From contig CAZYOC010000003.1 of assembly GCA_964648415.1 (NCBI GenBank), positions 1 to 48,832 on the forward strand: a stretch of 48,832 nt of DNA, written 5' to 3'. Position 1 is the first letter of the stretch; every line of letters begins with the position of its first letter. The notes below the pieces were generated by a model that searched no databases, was not told the DNA's origin, and worked only from the letters and a program-made list of their open reading frames with translations. The translations under genes were made by a program, and so were the position numbers. Origin of the DNA: an uncultured bacterium. GTDB lineage: Bacteria; Electryoneota; Electryoneia; Electryoneales; Electryoneaceae. This document shows positions 1-48,674 of this stretch, one piece after another.

Positions 1-55
1 GTGTTTCCATAGTTAACATGTTGTAGTATATAGACATGTCTGGATTCCAGCCTTC

Positions 56-257
56 CAGACTGTATCACAATAGAAACAGCTCTCATTCCAGCGAAGGCTG
101 GAATCCAGGCAAGGTGCAAGAATATAATAAGTTAGCGCCTCAGAACCAGAGTAGTTTCGATGATGGGTTTTCATAGCTAACATCTTGTAGTATATAGACA
201 TGTCTGGATTCCAGCCTTCGCTGGAATGAGATTCCTCTCGCATTCTGCGACAGTCTG
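56..257. mobile_element. Complete 202-bp MITE-like element nested in the hairpin of another copy (outer copy truncated by the window start, 1-55 and 258-272)
   Basis: Termini CAGACTGT...ACAGTCTG. Flanked by CTTC at 52-55 and 258-261. Perfect 27-bp internal inverted repeats at 82-108 and 204-230. Closely similar copy at 36574-36776. Confidence 0.8.
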
Positions 258-273
258 CTTCGTGGGGATGAGA

Positions 274-296
274 GTAGCACGGGCGTCCCGTTCGTG
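274..296 (+). repeat. GTAG-type REP palindrome
   Basis: GTAGCACGGGCGTCCCGTTCGTG, differing at 2 positions from the reverse complement of 33335-33357. Confidence 0.6.
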
Positions 297-4753: not shown

Positions 4754-4882
4754 TGTCGTGTCGGATCCTTAGCGCAGTCTGCGGAGATCTGACACCGGAG
4801 CAAGAAGAACCAAAGCAGACCTGTCGTGTCGGATCCTTAGCGTCGTCTGCGGAGATCTGACACCGGAGCAAGAAGAACCAAA
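4754..4882. repeat. Two 61-bp direct repeats (68-bp period), each an imperfect hairpin
   Basis: 4754-4814 and 4822-4882 differ only at 2 central bases. Stem GTGTCGGATC...GATCTGACAC. Confidence 0.85.
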
Positions 4883-35020: not shown

Positions 35021-36218
35021 CCTCATCGCTTCCTGTCGATTTCTGCCCGGAATCTTCGTCCTCCTCACCACTCAGGTAGTTATTCAGGTTCAGCATGCGA
35101 ATCTCGCCGTGATAATCGGTCGTTTCAATCGCTTCGATGTTGTCGAATCTCTTCACCACCTCGGCAAGACGCTCCGTGTGCTTGGTAAGCGTATTGATCA
35201 CTGTTTTCATGTCCGGGTTTTCATCAAGCGGCAGCAAGTTGGCCAGCAGGTAGAGGTTGCCCTTGATGACGGTCAGTGGATTGTTGAACTCGTGGCGGAT
35301 GCTGATGGCGGCTTCGGTCAGCGCCTCCAGTCGTTTTCCCCGCGCCAGTTCCTGCTCCAGCAGACGGCGTGCGGTGATGTCGCGCATGATTCCCAGGCAC
35401 CCGGTGATTTCACGGTCTGAACCGCGAAGCGGCACCTGGTGAACGGAGAACCAGGCTGTAACGCCGTCCGGCAGCTCGAACTCCGATTCATATTCAAAGG
35501 ACTGCCCTTTTTGCAGCACATCCACCGTACGGCCCTCATCCAGATCCACCGGGATGATGGCGTAGATGGCCTTTCCGGTCAACTGCTTGGGATGATAGCC
35601 GAACCGCTCCACCTCGTCGTTTATGAAGGTGATCATTCCGGCGGTGTCGGTGGAAAAGATGATATCGTCTACGGTTTGCAGGATGCGGTCGAGGTACGTC
35701 TTGTTCTTTTCCGTCTCCTGGTAGTCCTGGGCATGTTTGATGGCTACGGCGGCCTGGCTGGCGGCCATGAAGATCAGGGTCTGACGGAAGGGGCTGACCT
35801 CGTCGCCTGCCGGCTGCACTTCCGCGAAGAGCATCCCCACCCGCTTGTCGCCCACCATCAAGGGCACCAGCAGCAGGGTGTCGGTCTTCAGGGGTTGAGC
35901 GATGCTGAAGCTCGAGGTGGTGTCTGAAAAAACAGGCCGCTCCTGCTGGAACACCCAGTCCACGACACCGTCCTCGTTCAACGACACTGCCAGGTCCAGC
36001 AGGTTCAGCGATTCTGTTCCAACAGGGACAAATGCGGAAGGGCGTTCCTGGAAGATGTACAGGCCGACGCCTTCGATATCGATCAAACGACGCATCAGGT
36101 CAAACAGCGAATTGGCCACCTCGTCCGGATCCAGATTCACGCGAATCTGTTCGGAGAGTTGCTGAAACGCAATCAGCTCCTGCAAGTTCTGTTTGTCGTC
36201 CACCTGTGCTCCGTGCAT
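35004..36218 (-). CDS. GAF-PAS-HisKA sensor protein lacking an HATPase domain
   Basis: LLVPLMVG (GAF), G.ITFIN...GY....L.G (PAS), RDIT (PAC) and HEFNNPL (H-box). No N, G1, F or G2 boxes. Confidence 0.8.
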   Translation of the reverse strand: MHGAQVDDKQNLQELIAFQQLSEQIRVNLDPDEVANSLFDLMRRLIDIEGVGLYIFQERPSAFVPVGTESLNLLDLAVSLNEDGVVDWVFQQERPVFSDTTSSFSIAQPLKTDTLLLVPLMVGDKRVGMLFAEVQPAGDEVSPFRQTLIFMAASQAAVAIKHAQDYQETEKNKTYLDRILQTVDDIIFSTDTAGMITFINDEVERFGYHPKQLTGKAIYAIIPVDLDEGRTVDVLQKGQSFEYESEFELPDGVTAWFSVHQVPLRGSDREITGCLGIMRDITARRLLEQELARGKRLEALTEAAISIRHEFNNPLTVIKGNLYLLANLLPLDENPDMKTVINTLTKHTERLAEVVKRFDNIEAIETTDYHGEIRMLNLNNYLSGEEDEDSGQKSTGSDEDGRDG

Positions 36219-36236
36219 TGTCCTGCACCTGTTTAA

Positions 36237-36859
36237 CAGACTGTCACAGCATAGAACCTACTCTCATTCGCCCCTTCCAGACTCTCACGGCATAGAACCT
36301 ACTCTCATTCGCCCCTTCCAGACTCTCGCAGCATAGAACCCACTCTCATTCGCCCCTTCCAGACTCTCGCAGCATAGAACCCACTCTCATTCCCGCGAAG
36401 GCGGGAATCCAGGCAAGGTTCAAGAATATAAGATGTTAGCGTTCCAATACAGAATCGATTTCACCTTTCGGTTTTCATAGTTAACATATTGTCGTATAAA
36501 GACATGTCTGGATTCACGGCTGTCCCAAACTGCGGGACACCGCAAGCTACGCTACGCTTCGGTTCCCGCCTTCCAGACTGTATCACAATAAGAACTACTC
36601 TCATCCCAGCGTAGGCTGGGATCCAGGCAAGGTGCAAGAATATAACATGTTAGCAATTCAGAACCACTGTAGTGTTCAATAGGGTCTTTTCATAGTTAAC
36701 ATGTTGTAGTATATAGACATGTCTGGATTCCAGCCTTCGCTGGAATGAGATTCCTCTCGCATTCTGCGACAGTCTGCTTCGCGGGAATGAGATCCATTGG
36801 ACATTTTGATACAGTCTTCTTCGCGAGAACGAGACTCCATGCCATTGTGATACAGTCTG
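36237..36859. mobile_element. Nested MITE array (623 bp) flanked by a TTAA duplication
   Basis: TTAA|CAGACTGT...ACAGTCTG|TTAA. Contains three 41-bp left-end units, an interrupted copy starting at 36360, a complete inner copy at 36574-36776 flanked by CTTC, and two right ends. Confidence 0.85.
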
Positions 36860-37720
36860 TTAATCGGGCATCTTCGCGGTAATCATGTCCAGCATTTCAA
36901 TAGCTTTGCGATAGAGATCGGTCATTTCATGGCGTACGGCCATTTCGTCGAAGCCGGGCAAGGCCTTGATAATGGGCTGGGGTGTCGGCGGCATGGAGCC
37001 GTCCACACCATGATTGTATCCCGCACGGTGGGCCATCCAGTTGGCGAGGATGACAGTCTGCGTCAGGCTCTCTTCGAACTCTTCCACCGGATCGTGATGG
37101 CCGCTGGCGGCCTTATGAATCTGCTCGGGGAACTGCCACCGCTCCATCAGCCAGCCTACGACTTCCGCATGGTCGGTGTCGAACTTCGTCCGTTCCGCCT
37201 CAAAGGTATACTGTTCCTCAAACTGGGCGTTATGGACCACGTTGGCGTATTCTTCCGGGTAGGAAGCCGCCAGCAGCAACCGGCCGATATCATGCAGCAA
37301 GCCGGCAACGAAGGCTTCTCCCGGCAGGCCGGTGCGCCATTTCTGTGCGATAATCCTCGCCGCGACGCCGGTCGCCAGGCTGTGCGACCAGAACTTGCGC
37401 GACTCGATCAACGACTGATCAAACGCGTTGGTCGTGATGTCCAGAACGCTGGTACCCACAACGATTTCCCGGACCGCGTCAAAACCCAGCACCACGACCG
37501 CCAGGGGGACGGTGCCGATGGCCTTCGGGAAACCGTAAAACGATGAGTTGGCGTGTTTCAGCAGGCGCGCCGTCAACGTGGAATCCGAAGAGATCACCGT
37601 CGCCAACTCGCGAGCGGTAATGTTCGGATCATCAATCAACGCCTGCACCTGCATGGCCGCTTCGGGCAACGGTGGAATCTCCTCGCCGCCCTGAATGTAC
37701 TCCCTGATCTCGTCCCGCAC
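36860..37720 (-). CDS. HDOD domain protein
   Basis: IPPLP, LTARLLKHANSSFYG, FWSHSLA and AFVAGLLHDIGRL. Confidence 0.93.
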   Translation of the reverse strand: MRDEIREYIQGGEEIPPLPEAAMQVQALIDDPNITARELATVISSDSTLTARLLKHANSSFYGFPKAIGTVPLAVVVLGFDAVREIVVGTSVLDITTNAFDQSLIESRKFWSHSLATGVAARIIAQKWRTGLPGEAFVAGLLHDIGRLLLAASYPEEYANVVHNAQFEEQYTFEAERTKFDTDHAEVVGWLMERWQFPEQIHKAASGHHDPVEEFEESLTQTVILANWMAHRAGYNHGVDGSMPPTPQPIIKALPGFDEMAVRHEMTDLYRKAIEMLDMITAKMPD

Positions 37721-47190: not shown

Positions 47191-47220
47191 CGCTTTGCGT
47201 CTCCTTGTTCCCACCTCGCC

Positions 47221-47381
47221 CGGACTTAATCAGAATGCCAAAGGGATCTCATTCCCGCGAAAGCGGGAATGAAAGTCGGTTTGATTCTGCGACACTCTGC
47301 TTCGCGGGAATGAAAGTCGGTTTGATTCTGTGACAGTCTGCTTCGCAGGAATGAAAGTCGGTTTTATTCTGCGACATCCTG
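47221..47381. mobile_element. Short form of the same MITE family with three 41-bp tandem end units
   Basis: Hairpin CATTCCCGCGAAAGCGGGAATG, then GCRGGAATGAAAGTCGGTTTKATTCTGYGACA..CTG three times, joined by CTTC. Flanked by a TCGCC(CGG) direct repeat. Confidence 0.8.
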
Positions 47382-48674
47382 TCGCCCGGCAATGGGAAGG
47401 GTTATGGTGAACAGGGTTCCCTTGCCGGAGATGCTGTCCACCTCAATTGACCCCTGGTGATTCTGAATGATGCGATAGCTGATGGACAAGCCCAGCCCTG
47501 TGCCTTCACCGACCGGCTTTGTCGTGAAGAAGGGATCGAAGATTTTCTCCACGACCTCCGGCGGCATACCCATGCCGTTGTCTTCCACCTCGATTTTGAC
47601 GCTGCCGCCATCCTTCCGCGACCGGATCCATACTTTGCCCGGCGGTTCTTCAATCGCCTGGGTGGCGTTGACAATCAGGTTCATCACCACCTGGTTGATC
47701 TGCTGCATGTTGCATTGAACCTTGGGAAGATCCTCATCCAGCTCGAGGATCACTTCAGCAACCTTTTTCGCCTTCCCTTTAACGATATTGAGTGTGCTGC
47801 GAATACCTTTGTTGATATCCGCTGCTCGCTCTCCTTCGGAATCATTGCGGCTGAACTGCCCCAGATCTTTGACAATCTGCTGGACACGCGATGTGCCCTC
47901 CAGGGACTCGTTCAATACCAGCTCGAAATCACCCAGGATACGGTCCACCTTCTCCTTTTTCAGCTTGTCCCGGATATCATCCGCAAGTGCGCCATCCGCA
48001 TCATTATCGCCAACCTGCTCCGAGATATAGCTCAGCGCATTGACCACTTTGCCGGCGTATTTCTGCATCGTCTGCAAGTTGGCGCGGACATAGCCGATGG
48101 GATTGTTGATCTCATGGGCCACCCCCGCCGCCATCTGCCCCAAAGAACTGAGCTTTTCCGATTGGAGAAGTTGCACCTGGGTCTCGTGCAGTTCCTTCAG
48201 CGCACTTTCCAGGTCCTTGTTTCGTTTGTCAAGCTGTTCTACCAACTTACGAAGCTGCTCGGCGCTGCGTTTCTGTTCGTCATAAAGATGCCGGCGTTCC
48301 AGCGCACGTTCCACCGTCAGACTGATCTCTTCCATGCTGACGGGTTTCTGGAGGTAATCGTACGCACCTTTTTTGATGGCCTCGAGCGCCGTGTCGATAC
48401 TGCCATGCCCGGTCAGGAAGATCACTTCTACGAGCGGGTCTTTCTGTTTCACTGTTTCCAGCAGTTCGAGGCCGTTCATTTTCGGCATCATCAGGTCGGT
48501 GACGATGACCTCGATGTGCGGGTTCTCATTGAAAAGCTCGAGGCCGCGTTCGCCGTCCTCGGCTGTGAAGACTTCCATCCCGAAGTGGACGAGGGCTTCC
48601 TCGACCACCTCACGGAGCCATTCCTCGTCGTCGATCACCAGCACCCGGGTCTTGCCGTCGTATGGCTCGATCAC
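47364..48674 (-). CDS. Hybrid histidine kinase (REC-HisKA-HATPase)
   Basis: [41 protein letters not shown] and GTGLGL. GTG 48674 after AGGAG. Confidence 0.93.

What the first reader, a model, noticed from the sequence alone, without database searches (positions are those of the whole stretch)
36233..36863. Self-targeting Russian-doll MITE: copies insert into the CTTC loop of their own hairpin
Seen: the 623-bp block is bounded by TTAA|CAGACTGT...ACAGTCTG|TTAA. A complete 203-bp unit (36574-36776) sits between two CTTC tetramers (36570-73, 36777-80). Removing it restores the host copy's hairpin CCCGC-CTTC-GCGGG. Nearly every internal junction here, at 52-55/258-261 and at 47300/47341 is CTTC abutting an element terminus. 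The 41-bp period of the tandem units (36237, 36278, 36319, 36360) equals the terminus-to-loop distance. Inference: a non-autonomous element carries its own preferred target and builds nests, with surplus single ends from adjacent deletion or slippage. The termini recall IS1182/IS5-type ends, and IS1182 elements are known to target palindromes. No transposase is in this window. Removing the block leaves the HDOD stop (part of the TTAA) about 15 bp from the next ATG, so it split an operon junction.
Basis: partly seen in the sequence, partly recalled or inferred. Interest (0 to 1): 0.85.

Follow-up and report, generated by a model that had tools for sequence, protein, structure and literature searches.

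The report
Self-nesting hairpin-loop MITE family
A family of tiny non-coding jumping elements in this bacterium carries a small DNA hairpin near each end and inserts new copies exactly into the four-base loop of that hairpin, so copies pile up inside one another like Russian dolls.

Summary
The 623-bp block (36237-36859) lies between two TTAA. It holds a complete 203-bp unit between two CTTC inside a split hairpin, plus four left ends and three right ends at 41/42-bp spacing.

The pattern is genome-wide. The assembly has about 800 element ends. Of 641 termini, 381 abut "hairpin half-stem + 4 nt" (1.2% expected). Of 305 same-strand neighbouring termini, 198 are 41/42 bp apart, which equals arm length plus the 4-nt loop. 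The flanking 4-mers are identical in 21 of 43 hairpin insertions (5 expected).

A single-contig genome of the same genus shows the same dolls and arrays. It has an uninterrupted 52-bp spacer at the orthologous HDOD/kinase junction.

Best reading: a superfamily of terminal-inverted-repeat MITEs whose unidentified transposase makes a 4-bp staggered cut across the loop of the family's own hairpin.

Three qualifications apply. The hairpin is shared with sister families. One end subfamily uses TATA sites instead of loops. The surplus ends in this particular block carry private variants and are local duplications, not separate insertions.

No transposase with matching ends was found, so the IS1182 link remains an analogy. 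Contigs from public runs do not bridge the block, so its unit count is unverified.

The parts
36233..36236 (.). left copy of the TTAA duplication that bounds the whole block
   Evidence: read directly; same 4-mer at 36860-36863
36237..36359 (+). three tandem 41-bp modules, each a 37-nt left arm plus CTTC (starts 36237, 36278, 36319); surplus left ends
   Evidence: TRF period 41, 95% matches. The junction variant TCATTCGCCCCTTC occurs 3 of 3 times in the genome only here, which indicates local duplication.
36360..36573 (+). left part of the host element (253-bp type): left arm 36360-36396, intact left hairpin with GAAG loop (36391-36406), core, extra 54-bp module (36516-36569), 5' half of the right hairpin and the first CTTC (36570-36573)
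   Evidence: parse; intact hairpin listed; pairs of termini 252 bp apart (253-bp elements) recur 8 times
36574..36776 (+). complete 203-bp element inserted in the loop of the host's right hairpin
   Evidence: 24 full-length copies in the genome at 77-100% identity to this unit; folds as one long foldback, z = -7.75; sub-threshold match to Rfam RF02625 on both strands
36777..36818 (+). second CTTC (loop duplication) plus the 3' half of the host hairpin and the host's 38-nt right arm
   Evidence: GCGGGAA at 36781 complements TTCCCGC at 36563-36569 (I3/I4).
36819..36859 (+). CTTC plus the outermost right arm, ending ACAGTCTG
   Evidence: A 1196-base Logan contig of run X1 covers 36788-37100 without a difference.
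36860..36863 (.). right copy of TTAA; its first three bases are the stop codon of the HDOD gene on the minus strand
36860..37720 (-). HDOD-domain gene upstream of the block
   Evidence: Pfam HDOD E=9.6e-59; ortholog in G001 at 76% DNA identity
35004..36218 (-). GAF-PAS-HisKA gene downstream of the block (same strand)
   Evidence: Pfam; ortholog in G001 at 74% DNA identity, 52 bp after the HDOD gene
1..275 (+). second nest, cut by the contig start: right part of a host element (1-51), CTTC 52-55, 202-bp element 56-257, CTTC 258-261, then the 3' half-stem of the host
47221..47381 (+). third locus: one truncated left arm, an intact hairpin (GAAA loop, 47253) and three tandem right-arm modules of 41 bp separated by CTTC
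   Evidence: The variant GAAAGTCGGTTT occurs 3 of 3 times only here.

Best explanation

**Anatomy.** Each element ends in a 37/38-nt arm. The arm has a conserved outer 16 nt starting CAGACTGT, then a variable stretch, then TCTCAT or GTCAT. The arm runs straight into a 6-12-bp-stem hairpin with a 4-nt loop (TCCNGC-N4-GCNGGA).

**Mechanism (inferred).** A transposase acting in trans, not yet identified, joins the two element ends to the two strands of a target hairpin. The joins are staggered by 4 bp across the loop, most plausibly on an extruded cruciform. Repair of the gaps then duplicates the loop. The insertion destroys the host hairpin, but the newcomer brings one or two intact hairpins. 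Later insertions therefore go inward and build Russian dolls.

**Forms.** The smallest form is 78-79 bp: two arms and one hairpin. Nests of this form give runs of left arms followed by runs of right arms, with a period of arm + 4 = 41 or 42 bp.

**History of this block (inferred).** An element landed in a TTAA between the HDOD gene and the next gene. A 253-bp-type element occupies its loop, and a 203-bp element occupies the right-hand loop of that one. Two to three extra left modules arose by local 41-bp duplication. The duplication could be slippage, or a copy inserting into its sister copy followed by collapse of the long direct repeat.

**Shown:** the anatomy, the site precision, the loop duplication, the periodicity, recurrence in a second genome, and the insertion status of the block.

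**Inferred:** the DDE-type chemistry, the cruciform target, the order of events, and the way surplus ends arise.
For: 1. **Discrete mobile unit.** There are 24 full-length copies of the 203-bp unit at different loci with the same boundaries. Ten exact 37-nt arm variants occur 10-39 times each.
2. **Site precision.** Of 641 termini, 381 abut a half-stem plus exactly 4 nt, against a background of 1.2%. Of these, 278 follow the outer arm of another end and 60 follow the inner arm of a right hairpin.
3. **Loop duplication.** The 4-mers on the two sides are identical in 21 of 43 hairpin-context elements. Permutation gives 5.0 +/- 2.0, with 0 of 20000 permutations reaching 21. The duplicated 4-mers vary (GAAG, CTTC, TTTC, CTAC, GCAG, also TATA, TTAA, AGAG, TCTG). 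Variable duplicates fit a staggered cut rather than a fixed recombination core.
4. **Period = arm + loop.** Of 305 same-strand neighbouring termini, 198 are 41/42 bp apart. A 41-bp spacing goes with the 37-nt arm (111 pairs) and 42 bp with the 38-nt arm (64 pairs), out of 212.
5. **Array units are mostly unrelated to each other.** Neighbouring units average 78% identity, while each unit has a 94% match elsewhere in the genome. The neighbour is the closest relative in only 22 of 208 pairs. Most arrays therefore come from separate insertions.
6. **Clean dolls with matching stems.** Examples are G000 C24 3685-3845 and C7 35231-35598, and G001 2197649-2197931.
7. **Same features in a second genome.** G001, a single-contig genome of the same genus, has 65 end matches against 1 in the control, including runs at 41-bp spacing.
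8. **Orthologous junction without the block.** In G001 the HDOD and kinase genes are 52 bp apart, with no such element between them.
9. **Precedent.** The IS1182-family element IS1272 targets stem-loops. The authors' model includes a pathway that duplicates only the loop. A form with a tandem duplication of the terminal 25 bp is also described (PMC5678879, sections 21, 22, 29 read).
Against: - **No transposase with these ends was found.** I screened PF01609, PF05598, PF13751, PF13546, PF13340, PF13358, PF13359, PF00665, PF01797 and PF01548 in G000 and G001. The elements I could delimit have other ends and 3-, 8- or 9-bp or TA duplications. In G001, no pair of inverted ends 0.7-3 kb apart encloses a gene, apart from one MITE that an unrelated IS has entered.
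- **Non-identical flanks.** In 22 of 43 hairpin-context elements the two flanking 4-mers differ. Several are reverse complements of each other (GAAG on the left, CTTC on the right). These need secondary events.
- **Unbalanced clusters.** Only 4 of 46 internal clusters with more than two ends have equal numbers of left and right ends. Part of this is missed detection by my profile. It found 4 of the 5 left ends in this block.
- **A loop-avoiding subfamily.** The TG subfamily has the same outer 8 nt but avoids loops and uses TATA. One enzyme with one rule does not explain that.
- **Sequence versus structure.** All target hairpins share TCCNGC, so sequence recognition and structure recognition cannot be separated.
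- **Local duplicates in this block.** The surplus units here are local duplicates, not insertions.
Confidence: 0.75

Rival explanations
1. REP/BIME-like system. The hairpins are repetitive extragenic palindromes that a single-copy Y1 (RAYT-type) transposase spreads as single-stranded DNA. The arrays are BIME-like clusters.
For: The hairpins are short, GC-rich, extremely numerous (766 intact) and often clustered. The loops are G-N-A-R-like (GAAG, GAAA, GTAG). Both genomes carry Y1_Tnp genes (3 in G000, 10 in G001).
Against: - The elements have terminal inverted repeats 37/38 nt outside the hairpin.
- They are flanked by a duplicated 4-mer of variable sequence. HUH/Y1 single-strand transposition does not make such a duplication (established knowledge, recalled).
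- None of the 10 fetched Y1 loci has this hairpin within about 1.5 kb. One of them is flanked by a different palindrome.
- Units within arrays are in the same orientation. In BIMEs the orientation alternates (PMC2817692, abstract as listed).
Confidence: 0.06
2. Site-specific recombination (IS110-type, guided by a bridge RNA, or an integrase). The 4-nt loop is the shared crossover core, so the flanking repeats are core copies rather than target duplications.
For: IS110-family elements are known to target REP sequences (PMC1525189 and PMC3184786, passages read). G001 has 15 and G000 has 1 IS110-type gene. One hairpin lies about 500 bp from the G000 gene.
Against: - The duplicated 4-mer varies freely between insertions of the same element type (GAAG, CTTC, TTTC, CTAC, GCAG, TATA, TTAA, AGAG, TCTG). 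A crossover core would have to match the donor.
- The elements have long terminal inverted repeats.
- In 3 of the 10 fetched IS110-type loci, a different palindrome lies within the flank and none has this hairpin, apart from the G000 locus noted above.
Confidence: 0.04
3. No targeting. The arrays are minisatellites of a hairpin-containing 41/42-bp unit that expand by replication slippage and unequal exchange. The nests are an appearance created by palindromic repeats.
For: - The arrays in this window carry private variants shared by all their units.
- G001 has six near-identical units in a row.
- 49 of 208 neighbouring units are at least 90% identical.
- Cluster strings are mostly unbalanced.
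Against: - In 186 of 208 neighbouring pairs, the closest relative of a unit lies elsewhere in the genome.
- The 203-bp unit occurs with fixed boundaries in hairpins of different host families.
- Dolls with matched outer stems and unrelated inner units exist.
- Flank identity is four times the permutation mean.
Confidence: 0.08
4. The architecture of this particular block, especially the number of 41-bp units, is a short-read assembly artefact of a repeat that breaks the assembly everywhere.
For: - The genome is a 392-contig assembly.
- 347 of 784 contig ends lie within 300 bp of an element end or hairpin.
- None of the Logan contigs of 4 runs spans the block. Some show alternative joints (goes back 40 or 42, skips 208).
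Against: - Exact contigs in run X1 cover 36000-36278 (flank into the second unit), 36301-36371 (units 2-4) and 36788-37100 (last two right arms into the flank). That run may be the window's own source, so this is not independent.
- The units differ by point changes that anchor them.
- The same kinds of arrays exist in the single-contig genome G001.
Confidence: 0.1

Closest known systems
IS1272 and other IS1182-family insertion sequences that target palindromes (PMC5678879; abstract and sections 21, 22, 29 read)
   Same: The target is an inverted-repeat or stem-loop structure of variable sequence. The authors' model has a pathway in which joining at the loop duplicates only the loop. A longer form with a tandem duplication of the terminal 25 bp, including the inverted repeat, is described.
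   Different: IS1272 replaces the stem-loop and leaves no duplication. It is autonomous (1.9 kb, 548-aa transposase). It does not carry its own target and is not reported to nest. Here no IS1182-type transposase with matching ends exists in either genome. The two IS1182-type copies in G001 have other ends.
IS1397 / ISKpn1 (IS3 family) and other insertion sequences that insert into REP sequences (PMC1525189, passages read; that IS1397 inserts in the loop of the palindromic unit with a 3-4-bp duplication is recalled, not seen in a call)
   Same: Insertion is directed to a small, abundant chromosomal palindrome. The specificity is attributed to the transposase.
   Different: Those are autonomous elements that target a host repeat unrelated to themselves. 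Here the target is part of the mobile element itself, so insertion is recursive. The ends here do not start with TG as IS3-family ends do (recalled). The IS3-type element of G001 is not in hairpins.
REPINs / BIMEs with RAYT transposases (PMC2817692 and PMC3333891, abstracts as listed)
   Same: Hundreds of short GC-rich hairpins, paired in inverted orientation and clustered, with no coding capacity and vertical persistence within a lineage.
   Different: BIME units alternate in orientation, and no target duplication is made. Here the elements have terminal inverted repeats 37/38 nt outside the hairpin, a variable 4-bp duplication and same-orientation arrays. No Y1 gene is associated.
Nested plant MITEs and SaTar microsatellite-targeting elements (PMC5907723, abstract read)
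   Same: Non-autonomous elements that carry the sequence they target and therefore assemble into multimeric arrays.
   Different: SaTar arrays are described as uniformly non-nested and are eukaryotic Mu-like elements that target microsatellites. Here the arrays are nested, bacterial and directed at a hairpin loop.
Rfam RF02625 (WsnRNA46, Wolbachia sRNA 46)
   Same: The 203-bp unit matches the whole model on both strands (37 and 33 bits). Two 11-nt stretches are identical to the consensus (CTGGGATCCAG and CTGGATTCCAG). The layout is the same: GTCAT/TCTCAT, hairpin, ATCCAG on each side of a foldback.
   Different: The best score in either genome is 52 bits, below the gathering score of 65.3. The hairpin sequence differs. 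Nothing I read says that the Wolbachia locus is a mobile repeat. I saw only listings of papers that mention WsnRNA-46.

Membership tests
MITE (miniature inverted-repeat transposable element) | short (under about 500 bp), with no coding capacity | tested here: met
   Units are 78-79, 202-204 and 253 bp. The block has no ORF of 60 aa or more apart from overlaps of flanking frames.
MITE (miniature inverted-repeat transposable element) | terminal inverted repeats | tested here: met
   Left arms and reverse-complemented right arms align over 37/38 nt, with the outer 16 nt conserved.
MITE (miniature inverted-repeat transposable element) | target-site duplication | tested here: met
   The duplication is 4 bp. 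Flanks are identical in 31 of 82 elements against 6.7 expected, and in 21 of 43 in hairpins against 5.0 expected. The remaining elements have differing flanks.
MITE (miniature inverted-repeat transposable element) | high copy number with filled and empty sites | tested here: met
   There are 807 end hits. Intact and occupied hairpins of the same host type exist (C134 against C24). The orthologous junction in G001 has no such element.
MITE (miniature inverted-repeat transposable element) | an autonomous element with the same ends | tested here: not met
   None was found in G000 or G001 among ten transposase families. G000 is 92% complete by marker genes and its repeats are under-assembled, so absence is not shown.
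IS1182-family derivative | ends matching those of a transposase gene with DUF772 + DDE_Tnp_1 + DDE_Tnp_1_6 | tested here: not met
   G000 has no DUF772 or DDE_Tnp_1_6 match. The two such copies in G001 have unrelated termini and no hairpin flanks.
IS1182-family derivative | insertion into palindromes | tested here: met
   This is a functional likeness only.
REP/REPIN-RAYT | a Y1 (RAYT) gene flanked by the repeat | tested here: not met
   None of the 10 fetched Y1 loci (3 in G000, 7 of 10 in G001) has the hairpin or an element end in the flank, apart from one marginal profile match (E = 0.22) at the G000 C44 locus.
REP/REPIN-RAYT | no target duplication; single-strand cleavage at a conserved tetranucleotide beside the hairpin | tested here: not met
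   A variable 4-mer is duplicated on both sides. Cleavage chemistry is not testable here.
IS110-type (bridge-RNA) mobile element | no terminal inverted repeats; a fixed crossover core shared by donor and target | tested here: not met
   Inverted repeats are present. The flanking 4-mers vary.
Rfam RF02625 WsnRNA46 | score at or above the gathering threshold of 65.3 bits | tested here: not met
   The window unit scores 37.3 bits. The best copy scores 52 bits in G001 and 47.4 bits in G000.

The most novel reading that the evidence does not exclude
A structure-directed transposition system in which one small module (GTCAT/TCTCAT, hairpin, ATCCAG) is both the end-proximal recognition site and the integration target. 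An unidentified transposase, possibly single-copy, unbinned or of an undescribed family, joins element ends across the 4-nt loop of the extruded hairpin. The elements therefore home into their own kind and build recursive nests.

The same module layout occurs in sister families with other termini. It also occurs in 8 of 79 genomes of the phylum, and at sub-threshold level in the Wolbachia WsnRNA46 model. This would make it a widespread, undescribed superfamily of self-nesting bacterial MITEs.
Probability: 0.3. Interest if true: 0.8.

Novelty: new variant of a known kind. Interest (0 to 1): 0.62.

Why it matters
Hairpin-directed insertion is known for a few autonomous insertion sequences, but its rules are poorly understood. 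This genome holds hundreds of natural insertion events into one defined 4-nt loop. Intact, occupied and multiply nested versions of the same site are all present, which gives a ready data set for working out how a transposase reads DNA structure.

Self-targeting also gives a simple account of how a mobile element can reach about 800 ends in 4.4 Mb with little damage to genes: most new copies land inside old copies.

In practice, these elements lie within 300 bp of 44% of this assembly's contig ends (347 of 784). They create 41/42-bp arrays that short reads cannot count.

In four literature searches I found no description of nested or self-targeting MITEs in bacteria. A 2011 review (PMC3184786) and a 2024 review (PMC10969869, count in the listing) of prokaryotic MITEs do not contain the word "nested". 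The searched library lacks most subscription journals, and supplements were not seen.

Tried and rejected
**Search for the parent transposase**
- Ten Pfam families were searched in G000 and G001.
- I delimited five multi-copy elements in G001 by comparing copies:
  - a DDE_5 type of about 1466 bp, one copy of which sits inside a MITE;
  - two DDE_Tnp_1 types with 8-9-bp duplications, whose ends begin CAGAACTGTCC or CACTGCTGTCC;
  - an IS1182-type;
  - a DDE_3 type with a TA/CTAG target;
  - an rve type with TGAAGAGG ends.
- None shares the MITE ends.
- In G000, the only pair of inverted ends 0.8-3 kb apart that encloses a long ORF (C21) encloses an ordinary 734-aa frame. The other such pair (C308, 783 bp) holds a repeat array.
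- For 99 ends with no partner within 900 bp, I listed the longest inward ORFs. By eye none looks like a transposase, but they were not run against Pfam.
- The degenerate DDE fragment on C183 lies in a patch of unrelated IS debris.

**Reads.** Logan contigs of four runs do not bridge the block. This says nothing for or against the unit count.

**Wider DNA searches**
The two on other organisms (L040, L043) lack the hairpin on reading, and I treated them as chance.
- Plasmid collection: no match.
- Promoter and terminator scans of 36100-37000 found nothing.

**Steps that failed or were wasted**
- One literature search was wasted by a loose setting.
- My regular expression for complete TG-type elements found only 3 (first part), so their TATA/TATA flanks rest on few complete cases: 4, 3, and the cases read.

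**Idea considered and dropped.** TA-dinucleotide (IS630-type) targeting for the TATA-flanked ends. The loop insertions have no TA, and the IS630-type ends differ.
Full report
**What is in the sequence**

The window is a whole contig (C3) of a 392-contig, 4.42-Mb assembly with 57.8% G+C. Reading 35900-37200 and parsing it gives this order:

- TTAA (36233-36236).
- Three 41-bp modules, each a 37-nt arm starting CAGACT followed by CTTC (36237, 36278, 36319).
- A fourth arm (36360-36396) that runs into an intact hairpin, TCCCGC-GAAG-GCGGGA.
- A core, then a 54-bp extra module.
- The 5' half of a second hairpin (..TTCCCGC), then CTTC (36570-36573).
- A complete 203-bp unit (36574-36776).
- CTTC (36777-36780), then the 3' half of the split hairpin with a 38-nt right arm (36781-36818).
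- CTTC (36819-36822), then another right arm (36823-36859).
- TTAA (36860-36863).

Tandem Repeats Finder reports the left array (period 41, 3.8 copies, 95% matches), the right array (period 42, 3.0 copies, 78%) and a third array at 47263-47376 (period 41, 2.8 copies, 93%). Every coordinate in the finding is correct.

**The unit is a repeated, bounded element**

BLAST of the 203-bp unit against the genome gives 537 alignments and 24 full-length copies at 77-100% identity to the unit. Their mean pairwise identity is 84%.

Their alignment shows a symmetric layout:

- an outer arm whose first 16 nt are conserved;
- about nine variable nt;
- TCTCAT;
- a hairpin with a 4-nt loop (GAAG on the left, CTTC on the right);
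- ATCCAG, then a core.

As a single strand the unit folds into one long foldback (-39.6 kcal/mol; z = -7.75 against 200 shuffles).

A profile of the 46 arms finds 807 arm matches in the genome. Pairs of facing termini with nothing between them are 201-203 bp apart in 45 cases, 77-78 bp apart in 16 and 252 bp apart in 8. The family therefore includes elements of about 203 bp and 253 bp, and a minimal 78-79-bp form made of two arms around a single hairpin.

**Where the termini lie**

- Of 641 termini with enough flank, 381 (59%) abut a half-stem followed by exactly four bases. With the strict motif TCCNGC the count is 308. At random positions the loose motif occurs in 2382 of 200000.
- In 278 cases the half-stem belongs to the outer arm of another end. 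In 60 it is the inner arm of a right-hand hairpin, as at 36570 and at 52.
- Among 82 simple elements with readable flanks, 43 lie between complementary half-stems.
- The 4-mers on the two sides are identical in 21 of those 43. Permutation gives 5.0 +/- 2.0, and 0 of 20000 permutations reach 21. For all 82 the figures are 31 against 6.7 +/- 2.3.
- The duplicated 4-mers differ from case to case (GAAG, CTTC, TTTC, CTAC, GCAG and others).
- The same 203-bp unit sits in hairpins of different host types.

Against the simple picture, 22 of the 43 have different 4-mers on the two sides. Several of these pairs are reverse complements of each other.

**Periodicity and arrays**

Of 305 neighbouring termini on the same strand, 198 are 41 or 42 bp apart. 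The spacing follows the arm. It is 41 bp where the arm is 37 nt (111 pairs) and 42 bp where it is 38 nt (64 pairs), out of 212 pairs at 39-43 bp.

There are 150 runs of two to five such units. Neighbouring units average 78% identity (random pairs 69%). Each unit's best match elsewhere averages 94%. The neighbour is the closest relative in only 22 of 208 pairs. Most arrays are therefore built from unrelated units, which points to separate insertions rather than local copying.

The arrays in this window are the exception. The junction variant of the three surplus left modules occurs three times in the genome, all here. The variant of the 47263 array occurs three times, all there.

**Dolls**

Clean nests with matching outer stems and unrelated inner units exist.

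- On contig C24, a TATA-flanked minimal element with a GAAG loop holds a 79-bp element between two GAAG.
- On contig C7, three levels are stacked.

Cluster strings nearly always read left ends first and right ends second, but they are rarely balanced. Of 176 clusters away from contig ends, 83 are single ends and 37 are simple pairs. Of the 46 with more than two ends, 4 are balanced. Part of this comes from my profile missing diverged ends and sister-family ends. It found 4 of the 5 left ends in this block, and many "single" ends have a partner of another subfamily.

I infer the rest reflects loss of units from one side. A nest of palindromic units is a long near-palindrome, and such structures are unstable in bacteria (established knowledge, recalled). 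Direct repeats offset by 41/42 bp also invite deletion.

In the C7 nest, the middle pair of arms is nearly identical to the arms of the innermost element. The two 4-mers flanking the innermost element are reverse complements of each other (GAAG on the left, CTTC on the right). I read this as a copy inserting into its sister copy, followed by collapse of the long direct repeat. That would add one terminal module per event. This is inference.

**A second genome**

A pattern for the arm finds 327 matches in G000, 18 in G001 (same genus, one contig of 5,447,365 bases) and none in 39 other relatives. The reversed-pattern control gives none.

With one mismatch allowed on the outer 16 nt, G001 has 65 matches against 1 in the control. 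They include:

- a balanced doll at 2197649/2197690/2197891/2197931, with further right arms outside it;
- six near-identical right modules at 1462497-1462717;
- four left modules at 2778924-2779047.

The architecture is therefore not peculiar to this fragmented assembly.

At the orthologous place in G001 the two genes match at 76% and 74% DNA identity. They are 52 bp apart, with no such element between them. In the window, removing the block and one TTAA would leave 14 nt between the genes. The block is an insertion into a short junction between co-directional genes. Whether the two genes are co-transcribed is not shown.

**This block in read data**

Two runs of one study hold 79% and 61% of the sampled words. 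They are kept as contigs built from short words, and either may be the window's own source. Their contigs match exactly at 36000-36278, 36301-36371 and 36788-37100. Nothing bridges the whole block, and several alternative joints appear, as expected where hundreds of copies share words. The outer junctions are thus supported, and the unit count is open.

**The target is shared, and one subfamily behaves differently**

The genome has 766 intact hairpins of the type TCCNGC-N4-GCNGGA, against 2 for the reversed pattern. The commonest loops are CTTC 204, GAAG 196, GAAA 129 and TTTC 112. Of these, 371 lie next to a detected arm and 395 do not. Many of the 395 belong to a sister family. Its inner arm is similar, but its outer terminus is different and is flanked by TATA.

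Within the CAGACTGT group, the bases at positions 9-10 separate two behaviours:

- Arms with CG, AT or CC at positions 9-10 are in loops. The counts are 119 of 149, 73 of 84, 61 of 74 and 20 of 21 for the four commonest types.
- Arms with TG are flanked by TATA in 104 of 129 cases and lie in loops in 3 of 129.

TG-type minimal elements are typically the outermost shell of a nest. I read them as the form that enters new DNA at TATA and then serves as a landing pad. Why the same outer 8 nt go with two target rules is unexplained. The block studied here entered at TTAA.

**The enzyme**

I searched both genomes for ten transposase families. The hits were:

| Family | G000 | G001 |
|---|---|---|
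| DDE_Tnp_1 | 4 | 12 |
| DUF772 | 0 | 2 |
| DDE_Tnp_1_6 | 0 | 2 |
| DDE_5 | 0 | 7 |
| DUF4096 | 0 | 0 |
| DDE_3 | 3 | 5 |
| DDE_Tnp_4 | 0 | 0 |
| rve | 1 weak | 5 (plus 5 weak) |
| Y1_Tnp | 3 | 10 |
| IS110-type | 1 | 15 |

None of the elements I could delimit has these ends or a 4-bp duplication. One DDE_5 element lies between MITE arms only because it entered the core of a MITE. Its six other copies lack the arms. No hit lies on contig C3. G000 is 92% complete by marker genes and breaks at repeats, so a multi-copy parent could be unassembled or unbinned. Several arm variants occur 20-39 times without a change, which suggests recent activity.

**Comparison with what is known**

Hairpin-directed insertion is documented. 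IS1272 of the IS1182 family inserts at inverted-repeat structures of varied sequence. The authors propose joining at the foot or at the loop of an extruded stem-loop. One pathway in their model duplicates only the loop. They also describe a form with a tandem duplication of the terminal 25 bp (PMC5678879, abstract and sections 21, 22, 29). Insertion sequences of five families target REP sequences (PMC1525189, passages).

What differs here is that the target is part of the mobile element, so insertion is recursive. The elements are also non-autonomous, and the loop is duplicated rather than the stem-loop replaced.

I found no report of nested or self-targeting MITEs in bacteria. The phrase "nested MITE" together with "bacteria" returned three papers, all on plants or fungi. 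A 2011 review contains no "nested", and the 2024 review shows zero occurrences in its listing. Plant elements that carry their own microsatellite target form arrays, described as non-nested (PMC5907723, abstract).

**An unexpected likeness**

The 203-bp unit matches Rfam RF02625 (WsnRNA46 of Wolbachia) over the whole model on both strands, at 37 and 33 bits. The gathering score is 65.3. Two 11-nt stretches are identical to the consensus. Copies score up to 47 bits in G000 (7 matches) and 52 bits in G001 (5 matches), with none in 14 control genomes. With stricter filters, 8 of 79 genomes of the phylum have matches. On reading, a genome of another genus in the same family shows a right arm abutting TTTC plus a half-stem (L099). 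Another genome shows a TATA-flanked element of the sister type (L096). The module layout is therefore older than this genus. Whether the Wolbachia locus is a relative is a lead, not a finding.

**Verdict**

The central reading, a non-autonomous element that homes into the loop of its own hairpin and nests, is well supported. It needs four amendments:

- The target is common to a superfamily.
- The loop sequence varies.
- One subfamily uses TATA instead of loops.
- The surplus ends in this block are local duplicates.

The IS1182 link is an analogy of mechanism, not a shown membership. I rate it a new variant of a known kind and of clear interest to people who study transposition.

Noticed in passing
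G000 contigs C4 40916, C88 2295, C266 393, C146 78, C196 3681, C29 15393 (and others): In many hairpins a conserved 28-bp stretch sits between the 4-nt loop and one half-stem, in either orientation, without duplication of the loop. It looks like a second, tiny insert or a footprint specific to the same loop.
   Followed up: partly
G000 genome-wide; e.g. C15 16575, C24 3482, C8 25077: A sister MITE family has the same hairpin and a similar inner arm, but a different outer terminus flanked by TATA. It often shares its TATA with an adjacent TG-type element.
   Followed up: partly
window 47205-47395: The array at 47221-47381 is bracketed by an 8-bp direct repeat (TCGCCCGG, left copy about 7 nt outside the truncated left arm). 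Its left arm resembles the sister family's terminus rather than CAGACTGT (read).
   Followed up: no
window 4754-4882: A 68-bp tandem repeat, 1.9 copies, 96% matches. It is unrelated to the element.
   Followed up: no
G001: L057 (Y1 gene) and L067, L068, L070 (IS110-type genes): A different palindrome (CACCCGGC-N4-GCCGGGTG type) flanks one Y1 transposase gene on both sides in inverted orientation. It also lies beside three of the fetched copies of a multi-copy (13 matches) IS110-type element. This looks like a classical REP/RAYT pair with an IS that targets it.
   Followed up: no
G001 C1 2779151-2780617 (L034 1318-2784): A 1466-bp DDE_5-type insertion sequence (7 copies in G001) has entered the core of one MITE. 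That MITE itself follows three tandem left modules.
   Followed up: yes
G000 C308 2889-3671: An array of repeats about 97 bp long, each holding the hairpin with a GGAA loop, lies between two element arms.
   Followed up: no
G000, all contigs: 347 of 784 contig ends lie within 300 bp of an element arm or hairpin. Runs of N abut some hairpins. These repeats are a main cause of the fragmented assembly.
   Followed up: yes
window 36579-36764 and copies in G000, G001 and 6 other genomes of the phylum: Sub-threshold likeness of the 203-bp unit to Rfam RF02625 (Wolbachia sRNA 46), on both strands.
   Followed up: partly
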